Shown here: positions 1 to 35,467 of the stretch, one piece after another | Position numbering within the stretch: position 1 is the first letter of the stretch | How the letters are laid out: every line of letters starts with the position of its first letter | NCBI GenBank assembly: GCA_044432645.1 | Contig: JAWXUM010000008.1 | Coordinates: 1,056 to 65,055, forward strand | Direction of reading: 5' to 3' | Source of the DNA: Clostridia bacterium | GTDB taxonomy: Bacteria; Bacillota; Clostridia; Oscillospirales; Acutalibacteraceae | Length of the DNA stretch: 64,000 nt | Translations under genes and position numbers: made by a program | Notes under the pieces: model-generated | What the model was told of the DNA's origin: nothing | The model's input: the letters and a program-made list of their open reading frames with translations, nothing else | The model's database searches: none

Positions 1-130
1 GTTAAATAAAAAGGTGGAAGCTTTTTATTATCGAGGAGCGTTGTCAGTGAAGAACCGACAAGTTTCTGCCTAAATAGACTTTATTTTTTATACAATTCAA
101 ACAAATTGTATAAGCTTTATGAACTTTGAG

Positions 131-161
131 ATAAAAATAAAGCTTACATTAAGCAAGCTTT
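131..161 (-). terminator. Rho-independent terminator downstream of the recombinase gene
   Basis: On the minus strand, AAAGCUUGC / GUAAGCUUU stem (one G-U pair), 5-nt loop, then AUUUUUAU. Same structure at 23383-23413. Confidence 0.55.
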
Positions 162-244
162 ACTTTTAAAAAGTTTGGTTGCGGAGATAGGGATTGATGT
201 TGTATGCTCTTAGGGTTGGAACTTGAACCCCTACCACTTTTTAA

Positions 245-1909: not shown

Positions 1910-1996
1910 TTTTACCTCTTTCTGTATTGCGTGGGAGGTTTTAGGTACTGAATACTGTAATTCAATTATACTCTAAAACCTCCAACAAGTCTATTA

Positions 1997-2248
1997 TTAT
2001 TTGCTGTAATCGTTATCAATTATTTGTAGCATTTTATCATCAATAGCGACTAAATTGTCAGTAGGGAATACCGAGTGAATTCGATATCCTTTTCCATCAA
2101 TATCCATATATCTGTGTGAATAACATTTGCCTTGATATTTTTGAAGTTTGCTATCGGTGAATTTATCATCAACAATTTCCGTTGTTTCATAAGCTCCAAA
2201 AACTTTGTTTTCCATATAATATTTAGCTTCGTTTTGTATCTCTCTCAT
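1997..2248 (-). CDS. Hypothetical 83-aa protein, translationally coupled to the relaxase (TAATG overlap)
   Basis: ORF conserved in both element copies (25248-25499). GGGAGGA SD lies inside the relaxase 3' end. Confidence 0.6.
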   Translation of the reverse strand: MREIQNEAKYYMENKVFGAYETTEIVDDKFTDSKLQKYQGKCYSHRYMDIDGKGYRIHSVFPTDNLVAIDDKMLQIIDNDYSK

Positions 2249-3579
2249 TAATATCCTCCCATTTTTATATCATTTTTCGGTGTGTAATCTATTTCATTTT
2301 CTTGTTCTAATTTTAAATTATCAATGTAATTTTCTACATCTTCATCATTTATGTCGCTTTCGTTTTGTGATTTTAGCCACTCAATTAATAGGTAAACACC
2401 AGCTATTGTTAAGGCTGTTATTTCTACCATAGTTAATATTTCAGCCATTTTATCATCTTCATTTTCTGCTTGTTCTAATCTTTTAATTGACCACATCAGG
2501 TTGTTGGTTAAAGTCCTAGTTGATGCTTTATTAGTAGAAAAGTTATCAGACCTGTCAACATCATGAAGTTCAGCAGAATTATTCCTATTGCTGTTTTCAA
2601 GTTGGAACAGTTCTTCTCGTTCAGCTTCCCATCCAGTTCTTGTTTCTGTTGTAGGATTTGCAGCATCTGCTTGAGTTCCTTGAGCTCCTGATAGTATTGA
2701 TGTCGGTTCTCTAGTTGTTTCACATTGTAATTTATCGACTGTATTTTCTCTTGTGAATTGTTCAGTATATCCACTATCAACTGCTGATTGTCGAATATAT
2801 TGTCTATATTCTGCTCCGTCCAACTGCAACTGCTCGGCTTGTGCAATTCTTTCAATTTGTTCAATTCTTTGTCGTCTAAGTTCAAATTCTTTCTCCATTC
2901 TAATTTTCAAATATCGTTCTTGGTGTAGTTTATTATCTCGGCATTTCATTGAGTTTGGGCAAGTGTAAGTTATGCTTTTTCTGTTTTCTTCCCATTTTAC
3001 TTGATATCCCTCTGATTGCATTAGCTTTTTAAATTGCTCTTTAGATTTAGAAAATCTCATGCAATCATCTATGGTATTTATCAGCTTAAACTTCCAACTT
3101 TCGCCTTTTAAAGCTGAGTGATATTCTTTGCTACTCATTTGATTTTCTCTTTTGTTTTTTGAGTAAGTCGTAAGAGGTGTATCGCCAAATTTCAAACAAA
3201 TCTCATCATTTATCTTTCTGTTATTGACTAAATCATCATGGTTTTGATGTAACTTTTTACCTGTTTCAAAATTTACAGAGTTGATAATTATATGGTTGTG
3301 TAGATTTTCGGTGTTCTGATGGGTTGAAATAATTGCTTCAAAATTTGGAAATTCTTTTGCTACAAATTCTAAACCAATTTGATTTATTTCTTGTGGTGTT
3401 AGGTTTGTATTTGACGGAAATGACTGAACAAATTGATAAAACATTCGTCCGTTGTTTTTTCTAAATTGGTTTTTAGTGGTCATCATTTCGTCAAATGCTG
3501 ATGGCACTAAACAATTAAATCCAGTGTTTAAACCTTTGGTTTTCTCCATGTCAAGAGCATAGGTTATACTCTTAAGCAT
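2248..3579 (-). CDS. Relaxase/mobilization nuclease (MobA/VirD2-type)
   Basis: 443 aa. Histidine triad HQNTENLHNHIIINS. Directly follows mobC. Variable Gln/Glu-rich C-terminal half with a terminal hydrophobic helix. Confidence 0.88.
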   Translation of the reverse strand: MLKSITYALDMEKTKGLNTGFNCLVPSAFDEMMTTKNQFRKNNGRMFYQFVQSFPSNTNLTPQEINQIGLEFVAKEFPNFEAIISTHQNTENLHNHIIINSVNFETGKKLHQNHDDLVNNRKINDEICLKFGDTPLTTYSKNKRENQMSSKEYHSALKGESWKFKLINTIDDCMRFSKSKEQFKKLMQSEGYQVKWEENRKSITYTCPNSMKCRDNKLHQERYLKIRMEKEFELRRQRIEQIERIAQAEQLQLDGAEYRQYIRQSAVDSGYTEQFTRENTVDKLQCETTREPTSILSGAQGTQADAANPTTETRTGWEAEREELFQLENSNRNNSAELHDVDRSDNFSTNKASTRTLTNNLMWSIKRLEQAENEDDKMAEILTMVEITALTIAGVYLLIEWLKSQNESDINDEDVENYIDNLKLEQENEIDYTPKNDIKMGGY

Positions 3580-3623
3580 TGCCGTTTTAGTTTGCGTTTT
3601 GTTTTTGATAGCGTATAAAATTC

Positions 3624-3929
3624 CTATATAATCACCTCCGATATATTGTTGATTTTTGAATGAACTAAGCTTAATTCGAGGATCATGTTTTCTAAATTGA
3701 TTGAACTAATTTTACCCATATTGGCTAAAGTTGTAAGCTGATTTAGGTTTCGTCCAATAGCTTTTAGTTCGGTTGTTAGCTGTGACAATCCGTCTATCAC
3801 AACTATTGGTTTATCAAGTGCTTGTCTTGTGAGATATTCTGTTGTTGTCAAATGAGCTTTTTTAGCTTTCGACTTGATTTTATTAAGGTCGTTTTCGTTA
3901 ATTCTAAATGCAAAGTTTTTGTTTTTCAT
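3624..3929 (-). CDS. mobC: MobC-family relaxosome accessory protein
   Basis: 101 aa with the MobC signature GRNLNQLTTLAN. SD AAAGGA. Identical protein at 26875-27180. Confidence 0.85.
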   Translation of the reverse strand: MKNKNFAFRINENDLNKIKSKAKKAHLTTTEYLTRQALDKPIVVIDGLSQLTTELKAIGRNLNQLTTLANMGKISSINLENMILELSLVHSKINNISEVII

Positions 3930-3963
3930 AAGTTCCTTTCTGCGTAAATATATGGTTTGCGTT

Positions 3964-4044
3964 CTTAAGGGGTTCGGGTTCGCCCGACAAGCTGTGTTCG
4001 CCGTATAGGCGAATGCTATGCTTGCCTCTCTTGTAAGAGAGTTT
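3964..4044. promoter_or_regulatory. Putative oriT (two hairpins just upstream of mobC)
   Basis: TTCGCC-gtata-GGCGAA (3997-4013) and CTCTCTT-gt-AAGAGAG (4026-4041) flank ATGCTATGCTTGCC. Locally GC-rich. Conserved at 27215-27295. Confidence 0.5.
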
Positions 4045-4980
4045 TCGTAGATAAAAGTTAGTGGGTGCTGACACCAATGACGCCACTGACACGAGATTTA
4101 GGTAGGGAACAGTAGTAGAAGTTTAACGTCATTGCTGTGTTTTTCAATTGTGCATAGTCAAATCATCCTTTCTAAATTCAAAAAAGTGGGAGCAATATTC
4201 ATATTACGAAACAGGTGTTTTTTACCCTCTACTATATAAAGACACTTCTAAGCCAAAATGTTCCTAAGTAGATAAAAAATTTTAAAAATAAATTTATCCC
4301 TCTAATAGGTAGAACACGAGAAACTAATTTTGTAACCCCTTTTGCAAAAATATTTTAATTAATTTAAAATGTCCTATACTATATAGCTACAACCTACAAA
4401 GCAAAAAACCACCATTAATTTTTTATAAAAAATATCCCTACACCTATTTACACACTCAGAAGCAAAAACACAGGGTGTTTTTCAAAAAAAGTTTTTAAAA
4501 ATATTTTTGCAAAATAAAAAAGCCCTTTGAAATTAATCAAAGAGCCTTAGTGTAAATATAAAATTGTGTATATATACTTATTATGTATTCAGAAATGAAA
4601 AAGTAATTGTTTTGTAGGACAAATAAAAACCGATGGTTATGACAAATTAATTTTGAGTTTAATTAATCACAGATACGAAAAATATATAAATCTTACTCTG
4701 AAAATTTTTCTTTATATTATAATTATGTATCAAGATTTCAATAATGTATAAAAATCAATAACAAATAAAAACCAATTTGATAACAAATTAATTTGCAAAA
4801 AAAATAACTCTCTACTATATAGGACAGTTGTAGAGAGTTTGTAAACCAAAATTATTTAATTTTATTACAGACACGAAAAATATATAAATTTCACTCTATG
4901 AAATTAACGTCATTGGTGTCATGGTGTCATAGTTTGTTTTTATCAACAGAAAAAATATAATAATTTTAAGTGTGGTAAGT

Positions 4981-5375
4981 GTAACTTGGTAAGATATTTC
5001 TAGTGTTTATCACGTTCTTTGGATTTTTACAAGTGTAACCAAAGCGTAACTTAAGTGTAACTGGTAACACATGAGTAACATTTGGGTAACACTTGCGTGT
5101 GTGCGAAAAAGTCAGTGTTCATCAGATTTTTGGGACTTGGTAACACTTACCACACTTGTTTTAAAGTAAAGCTGTTATATATACAAAAAAATCTGTCACT
5201 ACTGACACTTTACAAAAAAGTCTAGGTTTTAAGCCATTCTTAGGAAATTTACTAGTGACACCTTTTCGTTACTTTACCGACACAAATGACAGAAATATAT
5301 CGGATAAATAACAGGTTTAAATTGCGATAAACTCAGTGTTTGCAAGGGTTTCTAGGAAAAGTGACAGAATGACAG
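4981..5375 (+). repeat. Strand-biased short-motif arrays (GTAAC x8, then TGACA[C/G] x5-6)
   Basis: GTAAC at 4981, 5035, 5046, 5057, 5064, 5075, 5086, 5140. TGACAC/TGACAG at 5203, 5256, 5287, 5362, 5370. No credible ORF. Same arrays at 28878-29270. Confidence 0.7.
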
Positions 5376-5731
5376 AAAATTTAAACAAGAGTAACGTCCT
5401 AATTAAAAATCCTTTCTCTAACGCCAAACAAATTCGCAAACTGTGGCTCATGAGCCTTGTCTGTGATTTTAAGTTAGTTGGGGTGGTATCCTTACCCTAA
5501 GAGCGAATAATAAATCGACAAACTCTGACTTAGGTCTTGTCAACTACTCTAAAAACACGTTGTTAGTCCTTGCGTAATAATAGGCAAAAAGCATTTTAAT
5601 TATGTGTTATATTAGCTTAAAATATCGTATATTATATAATTTTGTTTATTATAGCAATAGAACTAAAAAAATATATATGTTATAATTACACTGTGCAAAA
5701 AGAACATCAATTCAAGTTTAAGGAGATAGTT

Positions 5732-6808
5732 ATGAAGTATAGAATTGGAATAATTGGAAGTGGTTCAATAAGCAAATCTCACACATATGGTTTTGATAAA
5801 TTAAATGAATTATATCAAGATTTAGAGCTTGAAAAGGTCGTTATGTGTTCTAGAAACATTACTGTAGATAGAGCAACTGAACTTGGTTGGAAAGAAATTG
5901 AAACAGATTGGAAAAAAGTTGTTGTTAGAGATGATATTGATGTAATAGATATTGTTGCTTACGATAATTTGCATTTTGAGATTGCTAAATTTGCGTTAGA
6001 AAATGGTAAACGTGTGATTTGTGAAAAACCACTTTCCGATACATCAGAACAAGCTTTAGAATTATCTAAATTAGCAATAGAAAAAAACATACCTGCTACT
6101 GTATGTATTAATTATAGATACATACACTCAGTTCGTTGTATTAAACATCTTATTGATACTGGTGTTTTAGGTGAGATACGACATATATTTGGTTCATTTT
6201 TAATGAATTGGGCAGTAAATGTTAATGGTGGTATGTATTGGAGATTAAACGATTCATATAGTAAGGGTGGAGCTTTAGGTGATTTAGGAACTCATATTAT
6301 TGATATGTGTGAATATTTTGGACTTGATTTTTCATCTGTGTGTGGTATGAATGAAGTGTACGGAAAAGAAAGACTATTGGGTACTGAAATGGTAAGCACT
6401 ACTGCAAATGAATTATCAGTATTTAATGCACGTTTTTCAAATAATGCACTTGGTATTTTTGAGCTTTCAAGGGTGTCTGGTGGCGGAACTGGTATGATGA
6501 TAGAAATACACGGAACAAAAGGCAATGTAAAGTGGGAGAAAAACAACATAAATACATTAAAAATTCATATGGCTGACGACCCAGAAAATAAATGGAGCTA
6601 TAAAGAAATTTTAGCAAGTGATATACTCCCCATGGATTATGACTTTAAACATGAATTTATTCAAATGGATAGCTACACTCTATTATTTAAGGACTTTTTT
6701 ATCTGTAATTCAGATTACCCTACCTTTGAAGATGGATATAAAGTTTGCAAAATAGTTGACGCTGTTATTGAATCTGATAAAAAAAGGAAGTACATAAATC
6801 TAAATTAA
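5732..6808 (+). CDS. Gfo/Idh/MocA-family NAD(P)-dependent oxidoreductase
   Basis: Rossmann motif IGIIGSGSIS and EKP motif (VICEKPLS). Start moved to ATG 5732, which has an AAGGAG SD. Confidence 0.85.
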   Translation: MKYRIGIIGSGSISKSHTYGFDKLNELYQDLELEKVVMCSRNITVDRATELGWKEIETDWKKVVVRDDIDVIDIVAYDNLHFEIAKFALENGKRVICEKPLSDTSEQALELSKLAIEKNIPATVCINYRYIHSVRCIKHLIDTGVLGEIRHIFGSFLMNWAVNVNGGMYWRLNDSYSKGGALGDLGTHIIDMCEYFGLDFSSVCGMNEVYGKERLLGTEMVSTTANELSVFNARFSNNALGIFELSRVSGGGTGMMIEIHGTKGNVKWEKNNINTLKIHMADDPENKWSYKEILASDILPMDYDFKHEFIQMDSYTLLFKDFFICNSDYPTFEDGYKVCKIVDAVIESDKKRKYINLN

Positions 6809-6833
6809 GTTTAATAAGTGAAAGGATGGTTCA

Positions 6834-7640
6834 ATGCTTAGAAAATTATTAGCACTGTGTGTAGTAGCTAAACTACAAATCCAAATGGCGTTTGTATATA
6901 GACTTAACTATTTGTTTGGCATAATATCGCTGTTTTTGCCAGTTGCTGCTTCGTATTTTATATGGACTGGTGTTTATTCTAGTGGAACCGTTGATACTGG
7001 TTATGACTTACAATCCATTTTGCTTTATTCTGTAATTGGAGTAGGTTTACGATTATCAACCAGTACAAATGTAATAACTTTATTTGAAGGACTTGTCAAT
7101 TCTGGTAATATTGCTTTAGAGCTTCTTAAACCTATAAGTTTACAGGCTAAAATACTTTTTACAACAATTGGCGATGTCATACAGGGATTATTAACAAAGT
7201 TTTTTGTAGTGTTTTTATTGGCTGTTTTTATATTTAGGTTAGATATATTGTTTATTCAACCAATAAATATTTTATATTTTGTAGCACTTATGTTACTGGG
7301 ATTTTTTATAGTATTTCTTATAGATTATTTAATTGGATTAATCAGTTTTTGGCTTACACAGTTGTGGGGAATTAATTTTGCCAAAAGGCAGATGATGTCT
7401 GTTCTTTCTGGAAGTCTTATCCCTCTTACAATGTATCCTACTGCATTAGTTACAGTCTTAAATTATACTCCATTCCCTTACATATATGGATATCCACTTG
7501 ATGCATTAATAATGGGAATAACGTCAGAAAGATTTTTAGAAATTGTGATAATCGATTTGATTTGGATAATCGGATTATTTGTTTTAAGTAGAATAGTTTG
7601 GTTCTTTGGTTCTAAAAAAGTATTTGTGCAAGGAGGTTAA
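6834..7640 (+). CDS. ABC-2-type transporter permease (COG4587/COG3694-like)
   Basis: 268 aa, about 6 hydrophobic helices, first of two permease genes ahead of an ATPase gene. Confidence 0.72.
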   Translation: MLRKLLALCVVAKLQIQMAFVYRLNYLFGIISLFLPVAASYFIWTGVYSSGTVDTGYDLQSILLYSVIGVGLRLSTSTNVITLFEGLVNSGNIALELLKPISLQAKILFTTIGDVIQGLLTKFFVVFLLAVFIFRLDILFIQPINILYFVALMLLGFFIVFLIDYLIGLISFWLTQLWGINFAKRQMMSVLSGSLIPLTMYPTALVTVLNYTPFPYIYGYPLDALIMGITSERFLEIVIIDLIWIIGLFVLSRIVWFFGSKKVFVQGG

Positions 7641-7642
7641 GT

Positions 7643-8440
7643 ATGAAAAAATATTTAGTTATATATTTTAAAAGACAAGGTTATAACATAGCAACCGAAC
7701 TGCAATATCGTGCTAACTTCATATCAACACTAATTACTGTATTTGCACAGCCAATAACAATGATTTTATCGTTCTATATAATCACAAGTCAGTTTGAAAC
7801 CTTTGCTGGCTGGACTTTTTTTCAAATGTCTTTTATTTATGGAATTTGGAGATTAGGACATTCAATATCAATATCATTTTTCCAACAAGGCTGGGATATA
7901 GGAAATTTTGTAAGAAATGGTGAATTTGATAAATATTTAGTTAAACCTTTAGACCCACTATTTCAATTGTTTTGTATTAGGTATCAGAAAATAGGATTTC
8001 CACATTTTATTTCTGGAATTGTAATTGTTGCATTTTGTTCGGTAAAGCTTAACTTAACTTTTTCTGTTTTAGATGTTGTTTTTTTAATAATAACTGTTTT
8101 GTCCGCTGCTATTATCGAAATGTCTGCAACTTTATTGTTTTCGTCTTTTTCCTTTTGGATAACAGATGCCAGTAATATCTTAAGAGTAGCATTAAACACA
8201 AATTATGAATTAATGCAATATCCTATAAATATTTATAATGATGTTTTAAAAGGTGTTTTAACATTCATTCTTCCTTATGGATTTATGAGTTTTTACCCTA
8301 GTTATCATTTTATTACTAATGGAGATGAACTTTCTAATATTTTCATATATGGTTCTCCAGTAGTAGCATTGATAATAGCAATAGTTGCAAGAAGCGTGTT
8401 TATGTTGGGAATTAAACATTATAATAGTACAGGTACATAA
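7643..8440 (+). CDS. ABC-2-type transporter permease (second subunit)
   Basis: 265 aa polytopic membrane protein. SD AGGAGG. 2-nt gap from the previous gene. Confidence 0.72.
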   Translation: MKKYLVIYFKRQGYNIATELQYRANFISTLITVFAQPITMILSFYIITSQFETFAGWTFFQMSFIYGIWRLGHSISISFFQQGWDIGNFVRNGEFDKYLVKPLDPLFQLFCIRYQKIGFPHFISGIVIVAFCSVKLNLTFSVLDVVFLIITVLSAAIIEMSATLLFSSFSFWITDASNILRVALNTNYELMQYPINIYNDVLKGVLTFILPYGFMSFYPSYHFITNGDELSNIFIYGSPVVALIIAIVARSVFMLGIKHYNSTGT

Positions 8441-8454
8441 AAGGAGTGTGAGAT

Positions 8455-9435
8455 ATGTCAGTTATAAAAGTTGAAAATTTAAATAAAACTTATAAAACAC
8501 GAATGGTTTCAAAGGGTTTAAGTGGTGGTTTTAAAGGTTTGTTTGAAAATAAGTATGCGTATAAAAAAGCTGTGGACGATATTAGTTTTTCTATTGAAAA
8601 AGGTGAAAAAGTTGGGTATATCGGACCTAACGGTGCTGGTAAATCCACTACAATTAAAATGCTAACTGGTATTTTAACACCTACATCGGGTGATATTATG
8701 GTTTCTGGACTTGTTCCATATAAAAAAAGAAAAGAAAATGCAAAACATATAGGTGTAGTTTTTGGTCAAAGAAGCCAGCTTATGTGGGATTTGCCACTAG
8801 AAGAATCTTTCGATATGCAAAGATATATCTTTGATGTTAGCAAAAATGATTATATAGATAGACTATCTTTTTTCAGAAAAACATTTGAGCTTGATGAATT
8901 CTTACGCAAACCAGTTCGTCAATTGTCTTTAGGTCAGCGTATGAGGGCAGAAGTTTGTCTATCTCTTATACATAATCCTGATATAGTATTCTTAGATGAG
9001 CCTACTATCGGACTTGATGTTGTATCTAAAGAAACTATCCGTGATTTAGTTAATAATATGAATAAGAATAATGGAACTACATTTATACTCACCACCCACG
9101 ACATGCAAGATATAGAGAAAACTTGTGACAGGGTTATGATTATTGACAAAGGCAAGTTAATGTATGATGATAATATCGAAACATTAAAAGAAAAATTTGG
9201 TAACAATAAATCTATAACAATTGTTTTGGAAGATATGGCAGAAAAAGATAAATCTATATATGAGCAAGAAGGTTTAAAAATAGAATATATCGATAAAAAC
9301 AAGATTACATACAGGTTATTAGGCTCAATTCCAGTAGAGCAAATTATAGCTACGCTATTCTCAAAACTAAAAATTAAAGACATTTCTATATCAAACGATA
9401 GTGTAGAAGATATAGTGAAAACTTTGTATGTTTAG
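8455..9435 (+). CDS. ABC transporter ATP-binding protein (COG4586-like)
   Basis: Walker A GPNGAGKST, signature LSLGQRMR, Walker B IVFLDEPT. Confidence 0.9.
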   Translation: MSVIKVENLNKTYKTRMVSKGLSGGFKGLFENKYAYKKAVDDISFSIEKGEKVGYIGPNGAGKSTTIKMLTGILTPTSGDIMVSGLVPYKKRKENAKHIGVVFGQRSQLMWDLPLEESFDMQRYIFDVSKNDYIDRLSFFRKTFELDEFLRKPVRQLSLGQRMRAEVCLSLIHNPDIVFLDEPTIGLDVVSKETIRDLVNNMNKNNGTTFILTTHDMQDIEKTCDRVMIIDKGKLMYDDNIETLKEKFGNNKSITIVLEDMAEKDKSIYEQEGLKIEYIDKNKITYRLLGSIPVEQIIATLFSKLKIKDISISNDSVEDIVKTLYV

Positions 9436-9450
9436 TAAATCAAAATACAT

Positions 9451-9490
9451 AAAGCACCTACTAATAAATTTTATTGGTAGGTGCTTTTTT
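9451..9490 (+). terminator. Rho-independent terminator of the oxidoreductase-ABC operon
   Basis: AAAGCACCTAC / GTAGGTGCTTT stem followed by a T-run. Confidence 0.8.
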
Positions 9491-9593
9491 GAAAATCAAA
9501 ACAAAATAAAATATACTTTTTAATATATAGCAAATCGTATAAAACAAAAGAACAACCATCTCTGATTGTCCTTAAAAGTTGTGTGATTTAATT

Positions 9594-9862
9594 TTTACAG
9601 TATCCAGACCCTCGGTTCACATTCCCACCTTAAGAGCATATACCTGAACCTATGACCTTCGGGTTATGAGCTTTGCTATAAGCGAAAAATTCAGTGTTTA
9701 TGGGAGTTTATAGCACTTTTTAGTCCATAAAATTGCCAAAAACCCGAGTGTCATTTCCACCCAGTCCACTGTTTCCGTCCCAGTTTTTCCTATTATGGGT
9801 CAAAACATGGGTCAAACCTTAAAAGTAATAAAGTCTAGTTTAATTTTTAATAAAAATAAGTT
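9594..9862 (+). repeat. About 270-bp dispersed repeat (U270), copy a
   Basis: Near identical to 34368-34637. Contains segments homologous to parts of the serine-recombinase elements and tandem ATGGGTCAA iterons (9794-9815). Confidence 0.8.
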
Positions 9863-9896
9863 CTCAAAATTTGCTATGCTGTAAACAAAGAAAGAG
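9863..9896 (+). repeat. Cassette-boundary site, copy 1
   Basis: CTCAAAATTTGCTATGCTGTAAACAAAGAAAGAG. Confidence 0.85.
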
Positions 9897-9923
9897 AATT
9901 TATCTTCTTGATAGCATTTTTAA

Positions 9924-10394
9924 TTATTTTAAACCAAATTCAATCTTTAAAGAGTTATATCTATCTTTTTCATGTGGTGATACTTCAAAAAATGGATTAT
10001 ATATGCAGTGTTGCATAACGTCGGCATCAATTAAAACTTCATCAAAAGAGCTATGTTTTATACCTTTACTGCTGTGATTATATATTGCTGAGCATATTTG
10101 CTCTATTTCTTTTTCGGTGAATAAAGATAATTTTTGCAAGATTTCTTTCGCAATAACTGAGCCTTTGTGTGCGTGGTTTGTGCTGTCTAAAGTAGAATAA
10201 ATGTAAATGTCATGGAGCATTCCAGCAATAGTGGCGAGTTCCACATCTTCATTTCGTTTCATTGCAATTAACGTGCAAACTTGGGATACACCATATAAAT
10301 GAATGTAAGCAGCTCTTTTTTCTTCATTGTTTGGAATATTAAATATCACTTGGTCAACGTATTTTCTTACTTCTTCAATTCTATTCATAAGCAC
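9924..10394 (-). CDS. HD-domain phosphohydrolase
   Basis: 156 aa with H...HD motif (GMLHDIYIY). The track start is GTG. ATG at 10388 behind GAGGTG is the more likely start. Confidence 0.8.
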   Translation of the reverse strand: MLMNRIEEVRKYVDQVIFNIPNNEEKRAAYIHLYGVSQVCTLIAMKRNEDVELATIAGMLHDIYIYSTLDSTNHAHKGSVIAKEILQKLSLFTEKEIEQICSAIYNHSSKGIKHSSFDEVLIDADVMQHCIYNPFFEVSPHEKDRYNSLKIEFGLK

Positions 10395-10429
10395 CTCACT
10401 AAATTATATGTTAATTTTATTGCATGGCT

Positions 10430-10463
10430 CTCAAAATTTGCTATGCTGTAAACAAAGAAAGAC
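10430..10463 (+). repeat. Cassette-boundary site, copy 2
   Basis: CTCAAAATTTGCTATGCTGTAAACAAAGAAAGAC. Last base overlaps the stop codon of 10463-11035. Confidence 0.85.
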
Positions 10464-11035
10464 TATTTTCTAAGCTTATCATATTGCACAACAGTTTCAC
10501 CAGTTTTAAGATTAATTTTTTCTTTATATAATAAGGTATATCTTATCTGACCTTTGGTATAATCTCTGTTGGTTTTTGGAAAGAATGAGCGACAGAAATA
10601 TGTATTATCCTCATTTTTAGAAATAAATATGTAAATATCGTTAGATTCCAACGGAGTTGATAGTAAAAAATCGGCTTGAATAAACGAAAAGGCATTAATT
10701 TTTTCATTGTATCTAAAAACTAAATTGTTATTATCTAGGATTTTTTCAATGTTGGCAAGTGGGATAAATCTATCTTCAATTTGAGAAATAAACTCACTTG
10801 TAGATATTTTTGCATAAGTTAATTTGTTATTAATAATGTCTGTGAAAACCTTAAAACGATTTTGATTAGCAACTTCTAAATCTCTAAGTTTAACAAGACC
10901 CATTAAATGATGAAACTGTGAAGAAAGAAACCTAATTCTAAGTTCAATTTTTTCACCTTTTCGCCCTAAAACAATTTTGTATTCAGTATGGGTAAGATTT
11001 TCAAATGCTTTTGCACACGCCAATAGTTTGTCCAT
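10463..11035 (-). CDS. Putative PBECR4-like (barnase/EndoU/RelE-fold) nuclease, paralog A
   Basis: 190 aa with an FHHLMGL motif. Paralog at 34671-35243. The family assignment is from memory and is tentative. Confidence 0.55.
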   Translation of the reverse strand: MDKLLACAKAFENLTHTEYKIVLGRKGEKIELRIRFLSSQFHHLMGLVKLRDLEVANQNRFKVFTDIINNKLTYAKISTSEFISQIEDRFIPLANIEKILDNNNLVFRYNEKINAFSFIQADFLLSTPLESNDIYIFISKNEDNTYFCRSFFPKTNRDYTKGQIRYTLLYKEKINLKTGETVVQYDKLRK

Positions 11036-11228
11036 AAAATTCCTCTCTGTATAAAGAAAGTCGCCTTGCTTTCACAAGACGACTAACAATAGCGTTTTCT
11101 TTCGGTATTACTACCTACATCGGTTCGAGGTTGCCACTCAACCCATCCGTAGAGCTCCATACAACAAGGCGACCGATACCCCCTTGCATATCAACACTCA
11201 AACAGACACACAGTCGTTGCCTGTTGTT
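11036..11228 (-). ncRNA. Structured 5' leader RNA with intrinsic terminator (copy A)
   Basis: Promoter TTGACA-N17-TAATAT. Conserved 5' block, covarying helix (11172-11177 with 11119-11124). Terminator hairpin 11059-11084 plus U-run directly before the SD. Confidence 0.6.
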
Positions 11229-11234
11229 ATTATT

Positions 11235-11263
11235 ATATTACACTATTATAGCAAATATGTCAA
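11235..11263 (-). promoter_or_regulatory. Sigma-70-type promoter of leader A
   Basis: -35 TTGACA (11258-11263), 17-nt spacer, -10 TAATAT (11235-11240). Identical arrangement at 35439-35467. Confidence 0.6.
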
Positions 11264-11272
11264 CGAGTTTAG

Positions 11273-11302
11273 AAAAATTTGCTATGCTGTAAACAAAGAG
11301 AG
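11273..11302 (+). repeat. Cassette-boundary site, copy 3
   Basis: AAAAATTTGCTATGCTGTAAACAAAGAGAG, 5 nt from the stop codon of 11308-11607. Confidence 0.8.
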
Positions 11303-11307
11303 CTATT

Positions 11308-11607
11308 TTATGATATTGCGATGCGTTCGTATTTAAAACTGTTTTTATATAAAGTTTCAGTTGCGATATCAATATCTCCGTCAAGCCAAGTAAGGATTCC
11401 ATCGATAATTTTGCAAGTTTTGAAAACTTCATCTTTTTTCAAAACTTCAAAAACTGGAATATCAGTTAATGTTGTGGCATCAAAAAGACGATCTTCGCTT
11501 GTGTTAAACGTAACAATCATCATCATATCATCTAAAGCTTTAACGTTTACTACTTCTAAATAATCAACGTTTTCACTTGCGTAAGCAATTCCATTTATAA
11601 TTCGCAT
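11308..11607 (-). CDS. DUF2442-family protein
   Basis: 99 aa. Pattern ...IVTFNTSEDRLFD...GILTWLDGDIDIATETLY is typical of DUF2442. Confidence 0.75.
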   Translation of the reverse strand: MRIINGIAYASENVDYLEVVNVKALDDMMMIVTFNTSEDRLFDATTLTDIPVFEVLKKDEVFKTCKIIDGILTWLDGDIDIATETLYKNSFKYERIAIS

Positions 11608-11618
11608 AATATTCCTCC

Positions 11619-11882
11619 TTAAAGTGGTTTGATTTTATCAAAGGCAACGCCTTGTACAGCTTTATTCCACGCTCCATAAACTTCTTCTTCGTATAAAGCA
11701 AGCCAACCGACAACCATTTTTAGTTGCCTAATTGGTAAAGCTCCAGCGAGCAACTCGCCGTCAAGAGCAATAGAAGCTTTATATTCTCCATAAGTTACGT
11801 GAACGTGTGGTTTATTGTGCTGAACAGTGTCTAAAAATAACATTTTAATTATAATTCCTTGAAATCGACATATTTCTGGCAT
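11619..11882 (-). CDS. DUF4160-family protein
   Basis: Start moved to MPEICRF (SD AAAGGAG). HNKPHVHVTYGEYKA motif is typical of DUF4160. Confidence 0.75.
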   Translation of the reverse strand: MPEICRFQGIIIKMLFLDTVQHNKPHVHVTYGEYKASIALDGELLAGALPIRQLKMVVGWLALYEEEVYGAWNKAVQGVAFDKIKPL

Positions 11883-11970
11883 AATAAATCTCCTTTTGTA
11901 TAGTATATCCACTGCTGTTTACAAATAAGTTATTAATGTAATTTTATCATAAAATTGCGATTTTTTCAAC

Positions 11971-12231
11971 TTATACATTCAATTTTTTCCTAAGTGCTTC
12001 TAGGCAATCGTCTGCATCTAGCACTTTGCCTTCCCTAATTTCATCTTCTGCTAACGCAAGTTTGGTGTAAAGTTCAAGCTTTGCAATTTTTTCTTCATAA
12101 GCTTCTAAATCCATTATTACCATTGAACCATAACCATTTTTGGTGATATAAATAGGCTCTTTTGTCTCGCTACACATTGCAGAAATAAGAGAAGTGTTTT
12201 TTAAATCTTTAATTGGAATAATTTGTGGCAT
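11971..12231 (-). CDS. Phd/YefM-like type II antitoxin
   Basis: Start moved to MPQIIPIKDLKNT (SD AAGGAG). EPIYITKNGYGSMVIMDLEAYE motif. Confidence 0.6.
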   Translation of the reverse strand: MPQIIPIKDLKNTSLISAMCSETKEPIYITKNGYGSMVIMDLEAYEEKIAKLELYTKLALAEDEIREGKVLDADDCLEALRKKLNV

Positions 12232-17921: not shown

Positions 17922-17974
17922 AAATTAACGAAATATTTTTTGCTTTGTAACTAGCTATTCCATACTTAATGTGA

Positions 17975-18007
17975 TATACTCCTTGTTAACAAAAACAAAG
18001 GAGTATA
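17975..18007 (+). promoter_or_regulatory. SD-sequestering hairpin upstream of the 79-aa ORF
   Basis: Perfect 10-bp stem TATACTCCTT / AAGGAGTATA. The right arm contains the AAGGAG SD 5 nt before ATG 18012. Repeated at 63830-63862. Confidence 0.5.
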
Positions 18008-18011
18008 GAAA

Positions 18012-18251
18012 ATGGCGAAGTTTACACTGCAAGAATTTTACTTAGGCGATGAGTATAACGTTATGGGTGAGGCTGTAAAGGATTTACTTACAAATGGCTC
18101 ACCTGATTATGAAGAACGAACTGGAATTGAGCTACTCATAGCAAAGCATTCTATCAAAGCAGCAATTAAAATGATTGAAAAAGGCGATTTTATTTTAGAC
18201 CTAGAGTCTGAAATGAAATCGCTTTCGCTATATCTGGGGGTGATTGAATGA
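18012..18251 (+). CDS. Hypothetical 79-aa protein
   Basis: Good SD. ATGA overlap with the next ORF. A 33-aa in-frame deletion variant lies at 63867-63968. Confidence 0.55.
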   Translation: MAKFTLQEFYLGDEYNVMGEAVKDLLTNGSPDYEERTGIELLIAKHSIKAAIKMIEKGDFILDLESEMKSLSLYLGVIE

Positions 18252-18696
18252 AAATACTAGAAGAACTATATCACGGCAACATAAATCCTAATGTGAAATT
18301 TTACAAGCAAAATACTAACTACGCAAAAGCAATGGACATTATTGCAACAAATGAAGACAGATAGTCGAATAAGCCCCAAATCATCATATCTTGGTGGCTA
18401 AAATTTCGCCTATCTTCGTTGTCGTCAATCGTATACGCCAGTATTACTCATTCCTCCGCCTAAATAGACAAAATTTTATCTCACCAATATTCAGACGCTT
18501 TGGAGCTTAATCGACTATACTCCCAGCAATACTTAAAGGAACAGAGAAAAAAGTTTTTATGGAATACCTAGATGCACAAGCGATAGTTATGAGGGAAAGC
18601 AGCGTGGAAGAGTTTATCATAGGATTTAAACTAGGAGCTAAAATCACACTAGCAATGGTTTCAGAAGATGACAGAATTTTTAAAGATATAGTGTAA
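18248..18696 (+). pseudogene. Small LEELYHGNI-motif gene (DUF6809-like, tentative) interrupted by a MITE-like insertion
   Basis: 38 codons run into TAG at 18362, the first bases of the insert. The C-terminal part (ILPAILKGTEKK...FIIGFKLGAKI...) continues after 18517 in another frame. Confidence 0.55.
18362..18517. mobile_element. MITE-like 156-bp insertion
   Basis: Terminal inverted repeats TAGTCGAATAAGCCCCAAA / TTTGGAGCTTAATCGACTA (17 of 19 match), internal inverted repeats, no ORF. Confidence 0.6.
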
Positions 18697-19616: not shown

Positions 19617-19886
19617 CGAAAAATCGAAAGAATTCAAAGGCTTTTGAGCGTTAATTCAAACAAGTTTGCAAAGGATAAATAACCACAAGCGTAACAGCGA
19701 TTTTAAGTAGAGTTGCCCCAATCTAAGTCAAGGCAAAACGATTTATTATTTGCCCATAGAGTAGTTACACCACTAAAAGTTTTTAGGACAGACAACCACA
19801 ACTTTGGATAAGGAAATTTAATATTGAAAATAGGACTTTTACAAATAGTAGGAGTTCTATTTTTTATTGTTCTGTAAAATCAATTA

Positions 19887-19918
19887 TCAAATTTTGAGCC
19901 ATTGTAAACAAAGAAAAG
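19887..19918 (+). repeat. Cassette-boundary site, copy 5 (variant)
   Basis: TCAAATTTTGAGCCATTGTAAACAAAGAAAAG. Confidence 0.7.
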
Positions 19919-22275: not shown

Positions 22276-22287
22276 TCAAAGAAAGGG
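22255..22287 (+). repeat. Cassette-boundary site, copy 6 (overlaps the last 6 codons and stop codon of the integrase gene)
   Basis: TCAAAAATTGATACGCTGTAATCAAAGAAAGGG. The TAA at 22273-22275 is the integrase stop codon. Confidence 0.8.
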
Positions 22288-23130: not shown

Positions 23131-23496
23131 AATTATATATGGGTCAAATGAAAATGTCTGCTTTTTTGGGTACGGTTTATTTCCCGTATGGGTCAAGTTA
23201 TGGGTCAGGGGTTGATTTATTTGAAAAAGGGTAAAAAAATAAAGGCTATTTAGTTAAATAAAAAGGTGGAAGCTTTTTATTATCGAGGAGCGTTGTCAGT
23301 GAAGAACCGACAAGTTTCTGCCTAAATAGACTTTATTTTTTATACAATTTAAACAAATTGTATAAGCTTTATGAACTTTGAGATAAAAATAAAGCTTACA
23401 TTATGCAAGCTTTACTTTTAAAAAGTTTGGTTGCGGAGATAGGGATTGATGTTGTATGCTCTTAGGGTTGGAACTTGACCCCCTACCACTTTTTAA

Positions 23497-25161: not shown

Positions 25162-25247
25162 TTTTACCTCTTTCTTTTGGTGTGGGAGGTTTCAGGTACT
25201 GAATACTGTAATTCAATTATACTCTAAAACCTCGCACAAGTCTATTA

Positions 25248-25499
25248 CTATTTACTAAAGTCACTGTCAATTATTTGAATAATTTTCTCATCAATAGCGA
25301 TTAAATTTTCAGTAGGGAAAACCGAGTGAATTCGGTATCCTTTCCCATCAATATCCATATATCTGTGCGAATAACATTTGTCTTTATATTTTTGAAGTTT
25401 GCTGTCGGTGAATTTATCATCAACAATTTCCGTTGTTTCATAAGCTCCAAAAACCTTGTTTTCTAAATAATATTTTGCTTCGTTTTGTATCTCTCTCAT
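25248..25499 (-). CDS. Hypothetical 83-aa protein (copy 2)
   Basis: Homolog of 1997-2248 with the same TAATG coupling. Confidence 0.6.
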   Translation of the reverse strand: MREIQNEAKYYLENKVFGAYETTEIVDDKFTDSKLQKYKDKCYSHRYMDIDGKGYRIHSVFPTENLIAIDEKIIQIIDSDFSK

Positions 25500-26830: not shown

Positions 26831-26874
26831 TGCCGTTTTAGTTTGCGTTTTATTTTTGATAGCGTATAAAATTC

Positions 26875-34637: not shown

Positions 34638-34671
34638 CTCAAAATTTGCTATGCTGTAAACAAAGAAAGAC
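34638..34671 (+). repeat. Cassette-boundary site, copy 7
   Basis: CTCAAAATTTGCTATGCTGTAAACAAAGAAAGAC, identical to copy 2. Confidence 0.85.
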
Positions 34672-35243
34672 TATTTTCTAAGCTTATCATATTGCACAAC
34701 AGTTTCACCCGATTTAAGATTAATTTTTTCTTTATATAATAAGGTGTATTTTGTCTGACCTTTGGTATAATCTCTGTTGGTTTTTGGAAAGAACGAGCGA
34801 CAGAAATATGTATTATCCTCTTTTTGTGAGATGAATATATAAATATCATCCTCGTTTAGCGGAGTAGATAAAAGAAAATCTGCTTGTATTAAAGAAAACA
34901 TATTAACTTTTTCGTTGTATCTAAAAATAATGTTGTTATCGTCAAAGAGTTTTTCAATATTTGATAATGGGAAAAATCTATCCTCAATTTGAGAGATATA
35001 TCGACTTGTACAAATTTTATCATAAGTAGTTTTGTTCGAAATTATAGAATTAAATACTTCTTCACGATTTTGTCTTGCAACTCTTAAATCTTTTAGTTTA
35101 CCCAAACCTATTAGATGGTGAAAATCCCATTTTGTAAACACAATATTTAAGTCAATTAAATTTTCTTTTCTGCCTAAAATTATATGATATTTAATATTTA
35201 ACAATTTTTCAAACGATTTTGCACACGCAAATAATTCATCCAT
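34671..35243 (-). CDS. Putative PBECR4-like nuclease, paralog B
   Basis: Start moved to MDELFACAKSF (SD GAGGGA). C-terminal 70 aa almost identical to paralog A, N-terminal half diverged. Confidence 0.55.
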   Translation of the reverse strand: MDELFACAKSFEKLLNIKYHIILGRKENLIDLNIVFTKWDFHHLIGLGKLKDLRVARQNREEVFNSIISNKTTYDKICTSRYISQIEDRFFPLSNIEKLFDDNNIIFRYNEKVNMFSLIQADFLLSTPLNEDDIYIFISQKEDNTYFCRSFFPKTNRDYTKGQTKYTLLYKEKINLKSGETVVQYDKLRK

Positions 35244-35432
35244 AAACTTCCCTCTCATATTAAAACAGTCGCCTTGCTTTCGCAAGACGACTAAGGTGCA
35301 TTTTCTTTCGGTAAAACCTACTCCGACTTGAGGTTATTGCACAACCCCTACTGAAAGCTAGGCATAACAAGGCTTGTCGGTACGCTATTATGCTTCATCG
35401 CTTAGACAGACACACAGTCGTTGCCTGTTGTT
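35244..35432 (-). ncRNA. Structured 5' leader RNA with intrinsic terminator (copy B)
   Basis: Same promoter, 5' block and terminator (35267-35292) as copy A. The central helix is 35376-35380 with 35323-35327. Confidence 0.6.
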
Positions 35433-35438: not shown

Positions 35439-35467
35439 ATATTACACTATTGTAGCAAATATGTCAA
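35439..35467 (-). promoter_or_regulatory. Promoter of leader B
   Basis: TTGACA-N17-TAATAT. Confidence 0.6.

What the first reader, a model, noticed from the sequence alone, without database searches (positions are those of the whole stretch)
11036..11228. Candidate novel structured leader RNA (riboswitch-like or RNA-antitoxin-like) upstream of both PBECR4-like nuclease genes
Both paralogs (second copy 35244-35432) are preceded by the same promoter and a leader of about 190 nt. The shared parts are a 5' block AACAGGCAACGACUGUGUGUCUGU, the elements GCCUUGUU, GGGUUG...AACCUC (a hairpin with different loops) and GUAGGU..ACCGAAAGAAAA, and a terminator hairpin AGUCGUCUUG-NGAAAG-CAAGGCGACU with a U-run immediately before the SD. 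The central portions differ in sequence but keep the same length. One helix shows three compensatory double changes: copy A pairs AUCGGU with ACCGAU, and copy B pairs CCGAC with GUCGG at the aligned columns. The 5' ACGACU can alternatively pair with the terminator 5' arm AGUCGU, giving a possible antiterminator. No protein antitoxin or immunity gene lies in either cassette, so the RNA could gate or neutralise the nuclease. I do not recognise it as any riboswitch or T-box class that I know.
Basis: partly seen in the sequence, partly recalled or inferred. Interest (0 to 1): 0.8.

Follow-up and report, generated by a model that had tools for sequence, protein, structure and literature searches.

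The report
Drum RNA upstream of PBECR4 nucleases
The structured leader before both nuclease genes is real, but it is the already catalogued "drum" RNA (Rfam RF02958), whose function is unknown; comparing hundreds of loci shows it is the constant partner of PBECR4 nuclease genes and most likely acts as an RNA antidote to the nuclease rather than as a riboswitch.

Summary
On the minus strand, both PBECR4 genes (10463-11035 and 34671-35243) are preceded by the same promoter, a 5' hairpin, a structured RNA of about 112 nt, and a terminator just before the ribosome-binding site.

The RNA is not a new class. Both copies match Rfam RF02958, the drum RNA (Weinberg 2017), over the full model at 82.5 and 87 bits; the family threshold is 43.

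New findings here:
- Drum sits directly upstream of PBECR4, on the same strand, in 77 of 78 usable genome loci. The same holds on Enterococcus and Streptococcus suis plasmids, where the protein is only 28-35% identical.
- No antiterminator pairing is supported.
- PBECR4 has no conserved protein neighbour.
- Well-conserved drum genes without PBECR4 are common, especially inside phage tRNA arrays. PBECR4 without drum is rare (1 of 78).

Best reading (inferred, about 45%): a type III-like toxin-antitoxin module in which drum RNA neutralises the PBECR4 RNase, with phage copies acting as decoys. The module fails the type III family criteria (no repeat array, no ToxN-like toxin). No experiment exists.

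The parts
11235..11263 (-). Copy A sigma-70 promoter (TTGACA, 17 nt, TAATAT). The predicted transcription start is near 11228.
   Evidence: The homologous TTGACATATTT...TATAATAATAGTA promoter is conserved across most of the PBECR4 loci.
11201..11225 (-). Copy A 5' hairpin 'P0' (AACAGGCA / UGUCUGUU, loop ACGACUGUG). It lies outside the Rfam drum model.
   Evidence: 97.9% paired, 6 of 8 pairs with double changes. The MFE fold reproduces it.
11087..11199 (-). Copy A drum RNA (RF02958), with helices P1, P2, P3 and P4 and a pseudoknot between 11172-11177 and 11119-11124.
   Evidence: 82.5 bits against a gathering score of 43, model positions 1-112. Covariation.
11052..11084 (-). Copy A intrinsic terminator: an 11-bp stem with a GAAA loop (11059-11084), then the U-run UUCUUUA (11052-11058).
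   Evidence: A hairpin starts right after drum in 79 of 79 loci, 78 of them followed by a U-rich tail (L018 has TCTTCC instead); in two loci, L018 and L054, the hairpin was confirmed by eye. Stems covary, 96.5% paired.
10463..11047 (-). Copy A ribosome-binding site (about 11040-11047) and PBECR4 gene (ATG at 11035, 190 aa).
   Evidence: PF18813, E=2.4e-40. AlphaFold2 model with mean pLDDT 91. Family-invariant residues, including H43 and T167, are retained.
35439..35467 (-). Copy B promoter (TTGACA, 17 nt, TAATAT).
35405..35429 (-). Copy B 5' hairpin P0.
35293..35403 (-). Copy B drum RNA (RF02958), with a pseudoknot between 35376-35380 and 35323-35327.
   Evidence: 87 bits, model positions 1-112.
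35260..35292 (-). Copy B intrinsic terminator (AGUCGUCUUGC-GAAA-GCAAGGCGACU) with its U-rich tail.
34671..35243 (-). Copy B PBECR4 gene (190 aa, 72% identical to copy A).
   Evidence: (E=4.6e-40).

Best explanation
What is shown. Each leader is a drum RNA (Rfam RF02958). It is transcribed from its own strong promoter as an RNA of about 175-190 nt: a 5' hairpin, the pseudoknotted drum core, and then an intrinsic terminator just before the ribosome-binding site of a PBECR4 gene. PBECR4 is a predicted metal-independent RNase of the BECR fold. The unit promoter - drum - terminator - PBECR4 is conserved from gut Clostridia to Enterococcus and Streptococcus plasmids. It has no conserved protein partner.

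What is inferred. The terminator makes drum RNA far more abundant than the read-through PBECR4 mRNA. Drum RNA then binds PBECR4 and holds it inactive, acting as an RNA antitoxin as in type III toxin-antitoxin or abortive-infection systems. If transcription of the module stops, for example on phage infection or loss of the mobile element, the RNA decays and the RNase is freed. Phages that carry stand-alone drum genes in their tRNA arrays would use them as decoy antitoxins. The two window copies, which have near-identical ends but diverged RNA and N-terminal protein regions, would be two cognate RNA-protein alleles carried by two related mobilizable elements.
For: Identity:
- Both copies match the drum model over its full length at 82.5 and 87 bits.

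Linkage of drum to PBECR4:
- Drum lies on the same strand, usually ending about 50-60 nt (up to about 300 nt in a few loci) before PBECR4, in 77 of 80 protein-anchored genome loci. Two of the three exceptions have no upstream DNA in the locus.
- It is also present upstream of PBECR4 homologues that are only 28-35% identical, on E. faecium, E. faecalis and S. suis plasmids.
- In an RNA-anchored metagenome sample, 91 of 109 informative drum loci have PBECR4 directly downstream.

Architecture like type III TA (promoter, RNA, Rho-independent terminator, RNase gene; review PMC5086642):
- A hairpin starts 0-3 nt after the drum match in 79 of 79 loci; 78 have a U-rich tail and L018 does not.
- Its stems covary.

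No protein antitoxin:
- The largest cluster of neighbouring proteins covers only 7 of 57 loci.

Action in trans:
- Drum genes without PBECR4 keep the invariant core and the covarying pseudoknot.
- 22 of 32 informative viral contigs carry such orphans, typically within tRNA gene arrays.
- L053 has one PBECR4 gene and two extra drum genes.
- L271 has an orphan drum cassette next to a canonical toxIN cassette.

Asymmetry as expected for a toxin and its antidote:
- PBECR4 without drum: 1 of 78 loci. Drum without PBECR4: 18 of 109 metagenome and 22 of 32 viral loci.
- Among these are loci with a truncated PBECR4 (L299) or an IS200/605 insertion after the terminator, while drum stays intact.

No regulated terminator:
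- No covarying antiterminator was found.

The protein:
- PBECR4 is a predicted RNase (Iyer 2017, PMC5512222).
- Both window copies keep the family-invariant residues.
Against: - There is no experiment on drum or PBECR4. Toxicity, RNA binding and neutralisation are all inferred.
- The module fails the type III family definition: no tandem repeat array and no ToxN, CptN or TenpN toxin.
- PBECR4 is absent from PADLOC, and its confident model has no significant structural match in the PDB.
- One apparently intact PBECR4 gene (L080) lacks drum.
- Drum is as intricate as a riboswitch or ribozyme, with many invariant unpaired bases. Weinberg et al. took this to suggest a more sophisticated biochemical role.
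- On Enterococcus and S. suis plasmids, PBECR4 lies beside ssb and giant SNF2/helicase proteins. This fits an establishment or anti-defence role for the nuclease as well as it fits addiction or abortive infection.
- Phage drum genes could serve another purpose.
Confidence: 0.45

Rival explanations
1. Drum is a cis-acting riboswitch or attenuator. It senses a ligand, or a signal related to phage infection, and controls read-through of the terminator into PBECR4. Phage orphan copies would then act as sponges for the ligand.
For: - The RNA lies in the 5' leader, with a terminator between it and the gene, in nearly every locus.
- Its complexity is riboswitch-like, with a pseudoknot and many invariant unpaired nucleotides.
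- In the window, 5' ACGACU can pair with the terminator arm AGUCGU (-10.9 and -10.0 kcal/mol).
Against: - No antiterminator covaries with the highly variable terminator arms. Matched and mismatched loci score the same, for the 5' hairpin and for the drum body.
- The terminator starts after the last drum helix and does not overlap it.
- Conserved orphan drum genes have no downstream gene. In phages they often have no terminator and sit between tRNA genes.
- Weinberg et al. also judged drum an improbable riboswitch.
- No ligand is suggested by the gene context.
Confidence: 0.15
2. Drum RNA is a positive partner of PBECR4: a cofactor, a guide, a scaffold or the natural substrate. It would form a ribonucleoprotein whose activity needs the RNA, for example an RNP carried by mobile elements that targets host or competitor RNAs, rather than being an inhibitor.
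For: - The RNA-protein linkage is obligate across 28-72% protein identity.
- The invariant single-stranded RNA segments could be protein contacts or catalytic elements.
- Iyer et al. propose that PBECR domains are offensive RNases of phages and conjugative elements.
- On plasmids the gene lies beside ssb and polyvalent SNF2/helicase genes.
Against: - An RNA made in large excess over the protein, because of the terminator, fits an inhibitor better than a stoichiometric cofactor.
- Orphan drum genes in phages and genomes that have no PBECR4 nearby are hard to explain if the RNA only works with the protein.
- The asymmetry in losses (the protein is lost, the RNA is kept) is the signature of an antidote.
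Confidence: 0.2
3. Drum has a function of its own, such as a ribozyme, a tRNA-like RNA or an RNA that binds a host factor. PBECR4 is only a frequent neighbour or a processing enzyme.
For: - Orphan copies keep the full core.
- Drum sits within phage tRNA arrays, where it would be processed like a tRNA.
- Weinberg et al. proposed a 'biochemically challenging task'.
Against: The near-perfect adjacency, with fixed order and strand over deep divergence, shows a direct functional coupling to PBECR4. There is no match to any other Rfam family.
Confidence: 0.15
4. The leader is a decayed coding sequence, a leader peptide or a chance similarity between two recent duplicates.
For: Copy A contains a 24-codon AUG frame within the leader (read directly from the sequence).
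Against: - That AUG is absent from copy B.
- Substitutions across 55 homologues are compensatory within helices, not codon-like.
- There are hundreds of independent homologues.
Confidence: 0.01

Closest known systems
drum RNA motif, Rfam RF02958 (Weinberg et al. 2017, NAR 45:10811, PMC5737381)
   Same: The window RNAs are members of this family. They match the full model at about twice the gathering score. They have the same P1-P4 helices and conserved single-stranded blocks, the same 3' Rho-independent terminator, and the reported 'compelling association' with a nearby protein.
   Different: Nothing essential differs. [quoted passage not shown] The paper's supplement could not be read.
Type III toxin-antitoxin / abortive-infection systems (ToxIN, CptIN, TenpIN, AbiQ)
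   Same: One promoter, then a non-coding RNA, then a Rho-independent terminator, then an endoribonuclease gene, with no protein antitoxin. They sit on mobile elements. The antitoxin RNA forms a pseudoknot (PMC5086642). One orphan drum cassette lies next to a real toxIN cassette (L271).
   Different: Type III antitoxins are tandem arrays of repeats of about 34-36 nt that the toxin cuts into units. Drum is a single, complex RNA of about 112 nt, with no repeats. The toxin here is PBECR4 (BECR fold), not a ToxN-family protein. Inhibition of the protein by the RNA is untested.
pseudo-ToxI of Pectobacterium phage PhiTE (a phage-encoded antitoxin mimic)
   Same: A phage carries a copy of a host RNA antitoxin without the toxin (PMC5086642). 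Orphan drum genes in viral contigs have the same form.
   Different: The phage drum genes are natural, widespread and placed in tRNA arrays, not laboratory escape mutants. Their decoy function is only hypothesised.
DUF3800-I to -XI, skipping-rope and FuFi-1 RNA motifs (Weinberg 2017)
   Same: They are orphan structured RNAs with 3' terminators, each tied to one nearby protein family. The authors discussed them together with drum.
   Different: Their sequences, structures and partner proteins are unrelated. At E<=0.1, Pfam gives no DUF3800 hit for the window proteins.
Transcription-terminating riboswitches and T-box leaders
   Same: A structured 5' leader is followed by an intrinsic terminator before the gene.
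   Different: There is no Rfam riboswitch or T-box hit. No antiterminator overlaps or covaries. Free-standing copies exist.

Membership tests
drum RNA (Rfam RF02958) | Score at or above the curated gathering threshold (43 bits) over the whole covariance model | tested here: met
   82.5 bits (11087-11199) and 87 bits (35293-35403), model positions 1-112 of 112.
drum RNA (Rfam RF02958) | Helices P1, P2, P3 and P4 present and supported by covariation | tested here: met
   Paired cells: P1 97.7%, P2 91%, P3 99.4%, P4 88.6%. Each helix has pairs with double changes, and 0 of 500 shuffles reach the observed values.
drum RNA (Rfam RF02958) | Rho-independent terminator at the 3' end (Weinberg 2017) | tested here: met
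   for the window. Present right after drum in 79 of 79 loci, 78 of them with a U-rich tail (L018 has TCTTCC).
drum RNA (Rfam RF02958) | Association with one specific protein encoded nearby | tested here: met
   PBECR4 lies directly downstream in both window copies, in 77 of 78 usable genome loci and in 91 of 109 metagenome loci. Whether this is the protein the authors meant cannot be checked, because the supplement is not held.
Type III toxin-antitoxin system | Operon with one promoter, an antitoxin RNA, a Rho-independent terminator and a toxin gene | tested here: met
   The definition comes from PMC5086642.
Type III toxin-antitoxin system | The antitoxin is a tandem array of short nucleotide repeats | tested here: not met
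   Tandem Repeats Finder reports no array in 10900-11400. The RNA is a single structured unit.
Type III toxin-antitoxin system | The toxin belongs to the ToxN, CptN or TenpN (AbiQ-like) endoribonuclease families | tested here: not met
   Pfam gives PF18813 (PBECR4) only, with no ToxN_toxin hit. There is no significant structural match in the PDB.
Type III toxin-antitoxin system | The RNA binds and neutralises the toxin, and the toxin processes the RNA | not testable with these tools
   This needs toxicity-rescue and binding assays.
Transcription-terminating riboswitch | An expression platform with mutually exclusive terminator and antiterminator pairings linked to the aptamer | tested here: not met
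   RNAduplex of the 5' hairpin or drum body against the terminator 5' arm gives matched -8.67 and -9.32 against mismatched -8.43 and -9.44 kcal/mol, with ranks near 0.5. The terminator does not overlap a drum helix. The test has limited power because many terminator arms are similar.
Transcription-terminating riboswitch | Consistently located in the 5' UTR of the regulated genes | tested here: inconclusive
   This holds for most bacterial copies. It does not hold for 22 of 32 viral and 18 of 109 metagenome copies, which have no PBECR4 and often no downstream gene.
PBECR4 (Pfam PF18813) for the downstream protein | Score above the Pfam gathering threshold over the full domain | tested here: met
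   139.4 and 138.4 bits against a cut-off of 27, profile positions 1-187 of 188.
PBECR4 (Pfam PF18813) for the downstream protein | [quoted passage not shown] | tested here: inconclusive
   H43 and T167 are invariant across members 28-72% identical to copy A, and H43 lies in a helix of the pLDDT-91 model. The best Foldseek hits are BECR-type CdiA-CT toxins, but only at E=0.06-0.26 and TM<=0.3. Nuclease activity is untested.

The most novel reading that the evidence does not exclude
Drum-PBECR4 is a new class of RNA-protein toxin-antitoxin or abortive-infection module. In it, a single intricately folded, pseudoknotted RNA of about 112 nt, not a repeat array, neutralises a BECR-fold RNase. Phages counter it by carrying decoy drum genes inside their tRNA arrays. 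This would assign a function to an orphan Rfam family and would describe a natural, widespread RNA-based anti-defence mimic.
Probability: 0.35. Interest if true: 0.75.

Novelty: already known. Interest (0 to 1): 0.4.

Why it matters
As a sequence feature, this is a routine hit to a published RNA family, so the claim of a new RNA class falls.

The value lies in the function of drum RNA, which has been unknown since 2017. The comparative data here tie drum to one protein family, the predicted RNase PBECR4, over deep divergence. They argue against a riboswitch. They also reveal stand-alone copies in phage tRNA arrays.

Together these give a concrete hypothesis that can be tested cheaply: drum is an RNA antitoxin, and the phage copies are decoys. 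Cultured hosts are available for the test (E. faecalis pKUB3006-2, E. faecium pAJ10XM1A, S. suis pID32563-SS1).

If the hypothesis is right, RNA-antitoxin systems would extend beyond the ToxN-type families, and a new kind of phage counter-defence would be known.

Tried and rejected
- **Novel RNA class.** Rejected, because both copies hit RF02958.
- **Antiterminator.** I tested pairing of the 5' hairpin or the drum body with the terminator 5' arm, comparing matched and mismatched loci. There was no signal.
- **Decayed ORF or leader peptide.** Rejected.
- **ToxI-like tandem repeats in the leader.** None found.
- **A conserved protein antitoxin or immunity gene next to PBECR4.** None found.
- **Solved-structure relatives of PBECR4.** The sequence profile search found nothing. 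Foldseek against the PDB found nothing significant.
- **PADLOC.** No hit. PHROGs gave only a weak hit to phrog_3446, of unknown function.
- **Identifying the window in annotated collections.** Megablast of 9500-12000 against plasmids and phages found no match.
- **Drum in cultured phage records.** BLAST with two drum variants found nothing, and PBECR4 by tblastn found nothing. The phage copies therefore come only from IMG/VR and metagenome contigs.
- **The first viral pattern scan** was too loose: only 19 of the 80 listed loci were real drum RNAs. I repeated it with a tighter pattern.
- **The supplement of Weinberg 2017**, which describes the drum-associated protein, is not held.
- **Literature searches** found no functional study of drum or PBECR4.
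- **The 24-nt cassette motif of the window** is absent from all 337 fetched loci.

Full report
**1. Observation.**

The finding lies on the minus strand. Gene A (10463-11035) and gene B (34671-35243) each encode a 190-aa protein. Both match Pfam PF18813 (PBECR4) at E of about 1e-40 over the full domain.

Upstream of each gene are the following parts:
- A TTGACA-17-TAATAT promoter (A: 11263..11235; B: 35467..35439).
- A leader of about 190 nt.
- An intrinsic terminator (A: 11084..11059 plus U-run; B: 35292..35267) that ends about 20 nt before the start codon, just ahead of the SD.

The promoter and 5' block are 97% identical between the copies. The body of the leader is only 60-72% identical, at nearly the same length. 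There is no tandem repeat in the leader. RNAfold reproduces the 5' hairpin, P1, P2 and the terminator in both copies, with z-scores of -2.7 and -2.0.

**2. Identity.**

A scan of the whole window against Rfam 15 at gathering thresholds gives exactly two hits, and both are RF02958, the drum RNA. They lie at 11087..11199(-) with 82.5 bits and at 35293..35403(-) with 87 bits. The family threshold is 43, and both hits cover model positions 1-112 of 112.

Drum is one of the 224 motifs described by Weinberg et al. 2017 (PMC5737381). The paper describes it as highly conserved and followed by a Rho-independent terminator. [quoted passage not shown] Its function is unknown.

I found no paper on the function of drum or PBECR4. 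PBECR4 itself is a predicted BECR-fold RNase defined by Iyer et al. 2017.

**3. Structure.**

I built two alignments: 37 drum sequences (A3) and 55 full leaders (A5). On A5:
- 92.6% of cells are paired.
- 38 of 47 pairs carry changes on both sides.
- 0 of 500 shuffles reach the observed values.
- Sliding the 3' partners by 1-3 columns drops pairing to 30-40% (for A3).

Every Rfam helix (P1-P4) is supported. Three further elements are also supported:

In copy A, AUCGGU pairs with ACCGAU. In copy B, CCGAC pairs with GUCGG. All 6 pairs show compensatory changes. More variants appear elsewhere: CCGCC/GGCGG, CCAUC/GGUGG and GUCAUU/AAUGAC in phage copies, and CUGG/CCAG and UUGG/CCAA in Enterococcus and S. 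suis.

It is 97.9% paired, with 6 of 8 pairs covarying, and it is not part of the Rfam model. P0-like hairpins also precede the phage copies I read by eye.

(c) The terminator stem is 96.5% paired, and 7 of its 8 core pairs covary.

A hairpin starts 0-3 nt after the drum match in 79 of 79 loci. A U-rich tail follows in 78 of them; L018 has TCTTCC instead. In two loci (L018, L054) the automatic pick was poor, and I found the hairpin by eye.

**4. Linkage to PBECR4.**

*Protein-anchored sample.* I fetched 80 genome loci that encode relatives of the window protein at 45-64% identity. They are mostly gut Clostridia, with some Treponema and some MAGs labelled Bacteroidales. Rfam finds drum in 39 of the 40 loci scanned. 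My own covariance model R1 finds it in 77 of 80. It is always on the gene's strand, usually ending about 50-60 nt before the start codon and up to about 300 nt before it in a few loci. Two of the three exceptions have no upstream DNA in the locus. L080 has an intact gene whose drum has been replaced by unrelated sequence.

*Distant relatives.* Twenty Enterococcus and S. suis plasmids encode PBECR4 at only 28-35% identity. All three that I examined have the same promoter - P0 - drum - terminator unit. Drum scores 46-52 bits there and lacks P4.

*RNA-anchored samples.* I scanned with a drum sequence pattern.
- Metagenomes: 120 loci, of which 91 have PBECR4 directly downstream, 18 have none although at least 900 nt of downstream DNA is present, and 11 are too short to judge.
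- Viral contigs: 38 loci, of which 9 are adjacent, 1 has PBECR4 elsewhere in the locus, 22 have none and 6 are too short.

R1 confirmed that all 34 newly tested 'none' loci are true drum RNAs.

*Neighbours.* No protein family is a conserved neighbour of PBECR4. The largest cluster covers 7 of 57 loci.

**5. Orphan drum genes.**

A 106-nt drum variant occurs in GC-rich phage contigs. It typically has a tRNA gene a few hundred nt upstream on the same strand. In L172 and L294 it is followed by tRNA-Trp, tRNA-Thr and tRNA-Thr. In L092, drum lies between tRNA-Asn and tRNA-Pro. These copies keep the invariant core (UGAAG, GGAG, GGGUUGUGC, CCUCAA, UAGG, GAAAGAAAAYGC) and the pseudoknot.

Bacterial orphans include the following:
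- True stand-alone cassettes with terminators (L319, L220, L261).
- A locus with a truncated PBECR4 (L299).
- Loci with IS200/605 inserted after the terminator (L330, L270, L308, L095).
- L053, which has one PBECR4 gene and two extra drum genes.
- L271, where an orphan drum cassette is followed by a canonical type III toxIN cassette: 3.2 repeats of 35 nt, a terminator, and a ToxN protein at Pfam E=3e-50.

**6. Mechanism.**

Shown:
- The RNA family and its structure.
- The promoter and terminator architecture.
- The obligate RNA-protein adjacency.
- The absence of a protein partner.
- The existence of conserved stand-alone RNAs.
- The asymmetry between PBECR4 without drum (1 of 78) and drum without PBECR4 (18 of 109 and 22 of 32).

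Inferred: drum is a trans-acting RNA, made in excess because of the terminator, that binds and inhibits the PBECR4 RNase. This is the logic of type III toxin-antitoxin systems (review PMC5086642). Phage drum genes would then be decoys, comparable to pseudo-ToxI of phage PhiTE.

The riboswitch reading is weakened on four counts:
- No antiterminator covaries with the terminator arms. Matched loci give -8.67 kcal/mol against -8.43 for mismatched loci, with a mean rank of 0.49.
- The terminator does not overlap a drum helix.
- Orphan copies lack any downstream gene.
- The original authors reached the same judgement.

A cofactor or guide role remains possible. So does a biological role in plasmid establishment or anti-defence rather than in addiction or abortive infection. 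On plasmids the gene sits beside ssb, giant SNF2/helicase genes and AbiH.

On the protein: the model is confident (pLDDT 91), but it has no significant structural relative in the PDB. The top, non-significant hits are BECR-type CdiA-CT toxins. H43 and T167, the candidate catalytic pair of Iyer et al., are invariant.

**7. Family membership.**

The RNA is a member of the drum family; all of its features are met. The module works like a type III TA but is not one, because it has no repeat array and no ToxN-family toxin. It is not a riboswitch or T-box by any test available here.

**8. Window context.**

The contig is from a Clostridia MAG. It carries two related mobilizable elements of about 11-12 kb, at about 1-11280 and 23253-35484. 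Each has a large serine recombinase, a MobA/VirD2 relaxase and a NikA/MobC protein, and each has the drum-PBECR4 module at its far end.

The two modules are mosaic. Their ends are 90-100% identical, while drum and the N-terminal two thirds of the protein are 57-82% identical. This is what two cognate RNA-protein alleles exchanged by recombination would look like, but that reading is speculative.

**9. Verdict.**

The claim of novelty is not supported, because the RNA is already catalogued. The riboswitch reading is not supported. The RNA-antitoxin idea is the best current hypothesis (about 0.45) and can be tested directly. Interest is moderate (0.4): the element itself is ordinary, but the function of drum RNA is an open question that these data sharpen.

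Noticed in passing
window 1-11280 and 23253-35484: Two related mobilizable integrative elements lie about 23-24 kb apart. Each has a large serine recombinase (245-1909, 23497-25161; Resolvase + Recombinase + Zn ribbon + DUF4368), a MobA/VirD2 relaxase (2248-3579, 25499-26830) and a NikA/MobC protein. Their cargo differs. The drum-PBECR4 module sits at the far end of each.
   Followed up: partly
window 9866-9889, 10433-10456, 11274-11297, 34641-34664 (minus strand); degenerate copies at 19862-19916 and 22230-22284: The exact 24-nt motif TTTGTTTACAGCATAGCAAATTTT follows the stop codon of four minus-strand genes: the HD-domain gene, PBECR4-A, the DUF2442 gene and PBECR4-B. Relative to element B, element A carries an extra 567-bp unit ('HD gene + motif') bounded by direct copies of the motif. 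The similarity between A and B ends inside the motif at 11280/35484. This looks like a cassette junction or recombination site. The motif is absent from the 337 other loci fetched.
   Followed up: partly
window 11308-11912 (minus strand): A pair of small genes, DUF4160 (11619-11912) and DUF2442 (11308-11607), lies immediately upstream of the copy-A module and ends with the same 24-nt motif. I recall such pairs being proposed as toxin-antitoxin-like, but I did not check this.
   Followed up: no
window 10424-10620 vs 34632-34828, and 11221-11260 vs 35425-35464: The identity between the two modules is mosaic. The promoter and 5' hairpin, and the last ~160 nt of the gene with the downstream motif, are 90-100% identical. 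Drum and the rest of the gene are 57-82% identical. This suggests recombination at conserved ends or diversification of the RNA and N-terminal protein part.
   Followed up: partly
L271 380-1665: An orphan drum cassette (promoter, drum at 484-604, two terminators) is followed by a canonical type III toxIN cassette: promoter, 3.2 repeats of 35 nt at 882-993, a terminator, and a ToxN gene at 1033-1665. Each cassette is preceded by a similar sequence, TTTTTCTCTGCTTTA(T)GGGCTA.
   Followed up: partly
L053 2843-4267: One PBECR4 gene is followed by two more complete drum RNAs (3775-3886 and 4155-4267). The repeated antisense ORF translations suggest that each is preceded by a repeated upstream sequence, possibly a promoter; no ORF lies between them.
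   Followed up: partly
L105, L125, L143, L146, L168, L175, L203, L206, L209, L212, L214 (viral contigs) and L253 (metagenome contig): Upstream of the phage drum genes, ARAGORN calls unusual tRNA-like genes: tRNA-Phe with anticodon AAA, or a 4-base 'ggaa' anticodon with an oversized loop. Sequence downstream of drum in some of these contigs also looks structured.
   Followed up: no
L336 (E. faecalis pKUB3006-2) and L337 (S. suis pID32563-SS1): On these plasmids, drum-PBECR4 lies beside ssb, a thermonuclease, very large SNF2-related or DEAD/DEAH helicase proteins and an AbiH gene. I recall such gene sets being typical of plasmid leading regions or defence islands, but I did not check this. A transcriptome study reports that a plasmid PBECR4 gene of E. 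faecium E8202 is upregulated on colonic epithelium (PMC11134301).
   Followed up: no
window 11216-11268 and 35380-35472 (minus strand): There is a sub-threshold Rfam match to DUF2693 RNA (RF02956): 16-18 bits against a gathering score of 81. It covers only the promoter-like 5' end of that model (UCUUUGACAUAcUUGAUA). This is probably shared promoter sequence, not a second RNA.
   Followed up: no
window 17948-18282 vs 63803-63999: A further pair of direct repeats, about 100 nt each at 95-97% identity, lies 45.8 kb apart and is unrelated to the two elements (families D11 and D12).
   Followed up: no
L330, L270, L308, L095: An IS200/IS605-type element (a TnpA-like ORF, plus a TnpB-like ORF in L270) is inserted at the same place just after the drum terminator in several contigs, separating drum from whatever followed it.
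   Followed up: no
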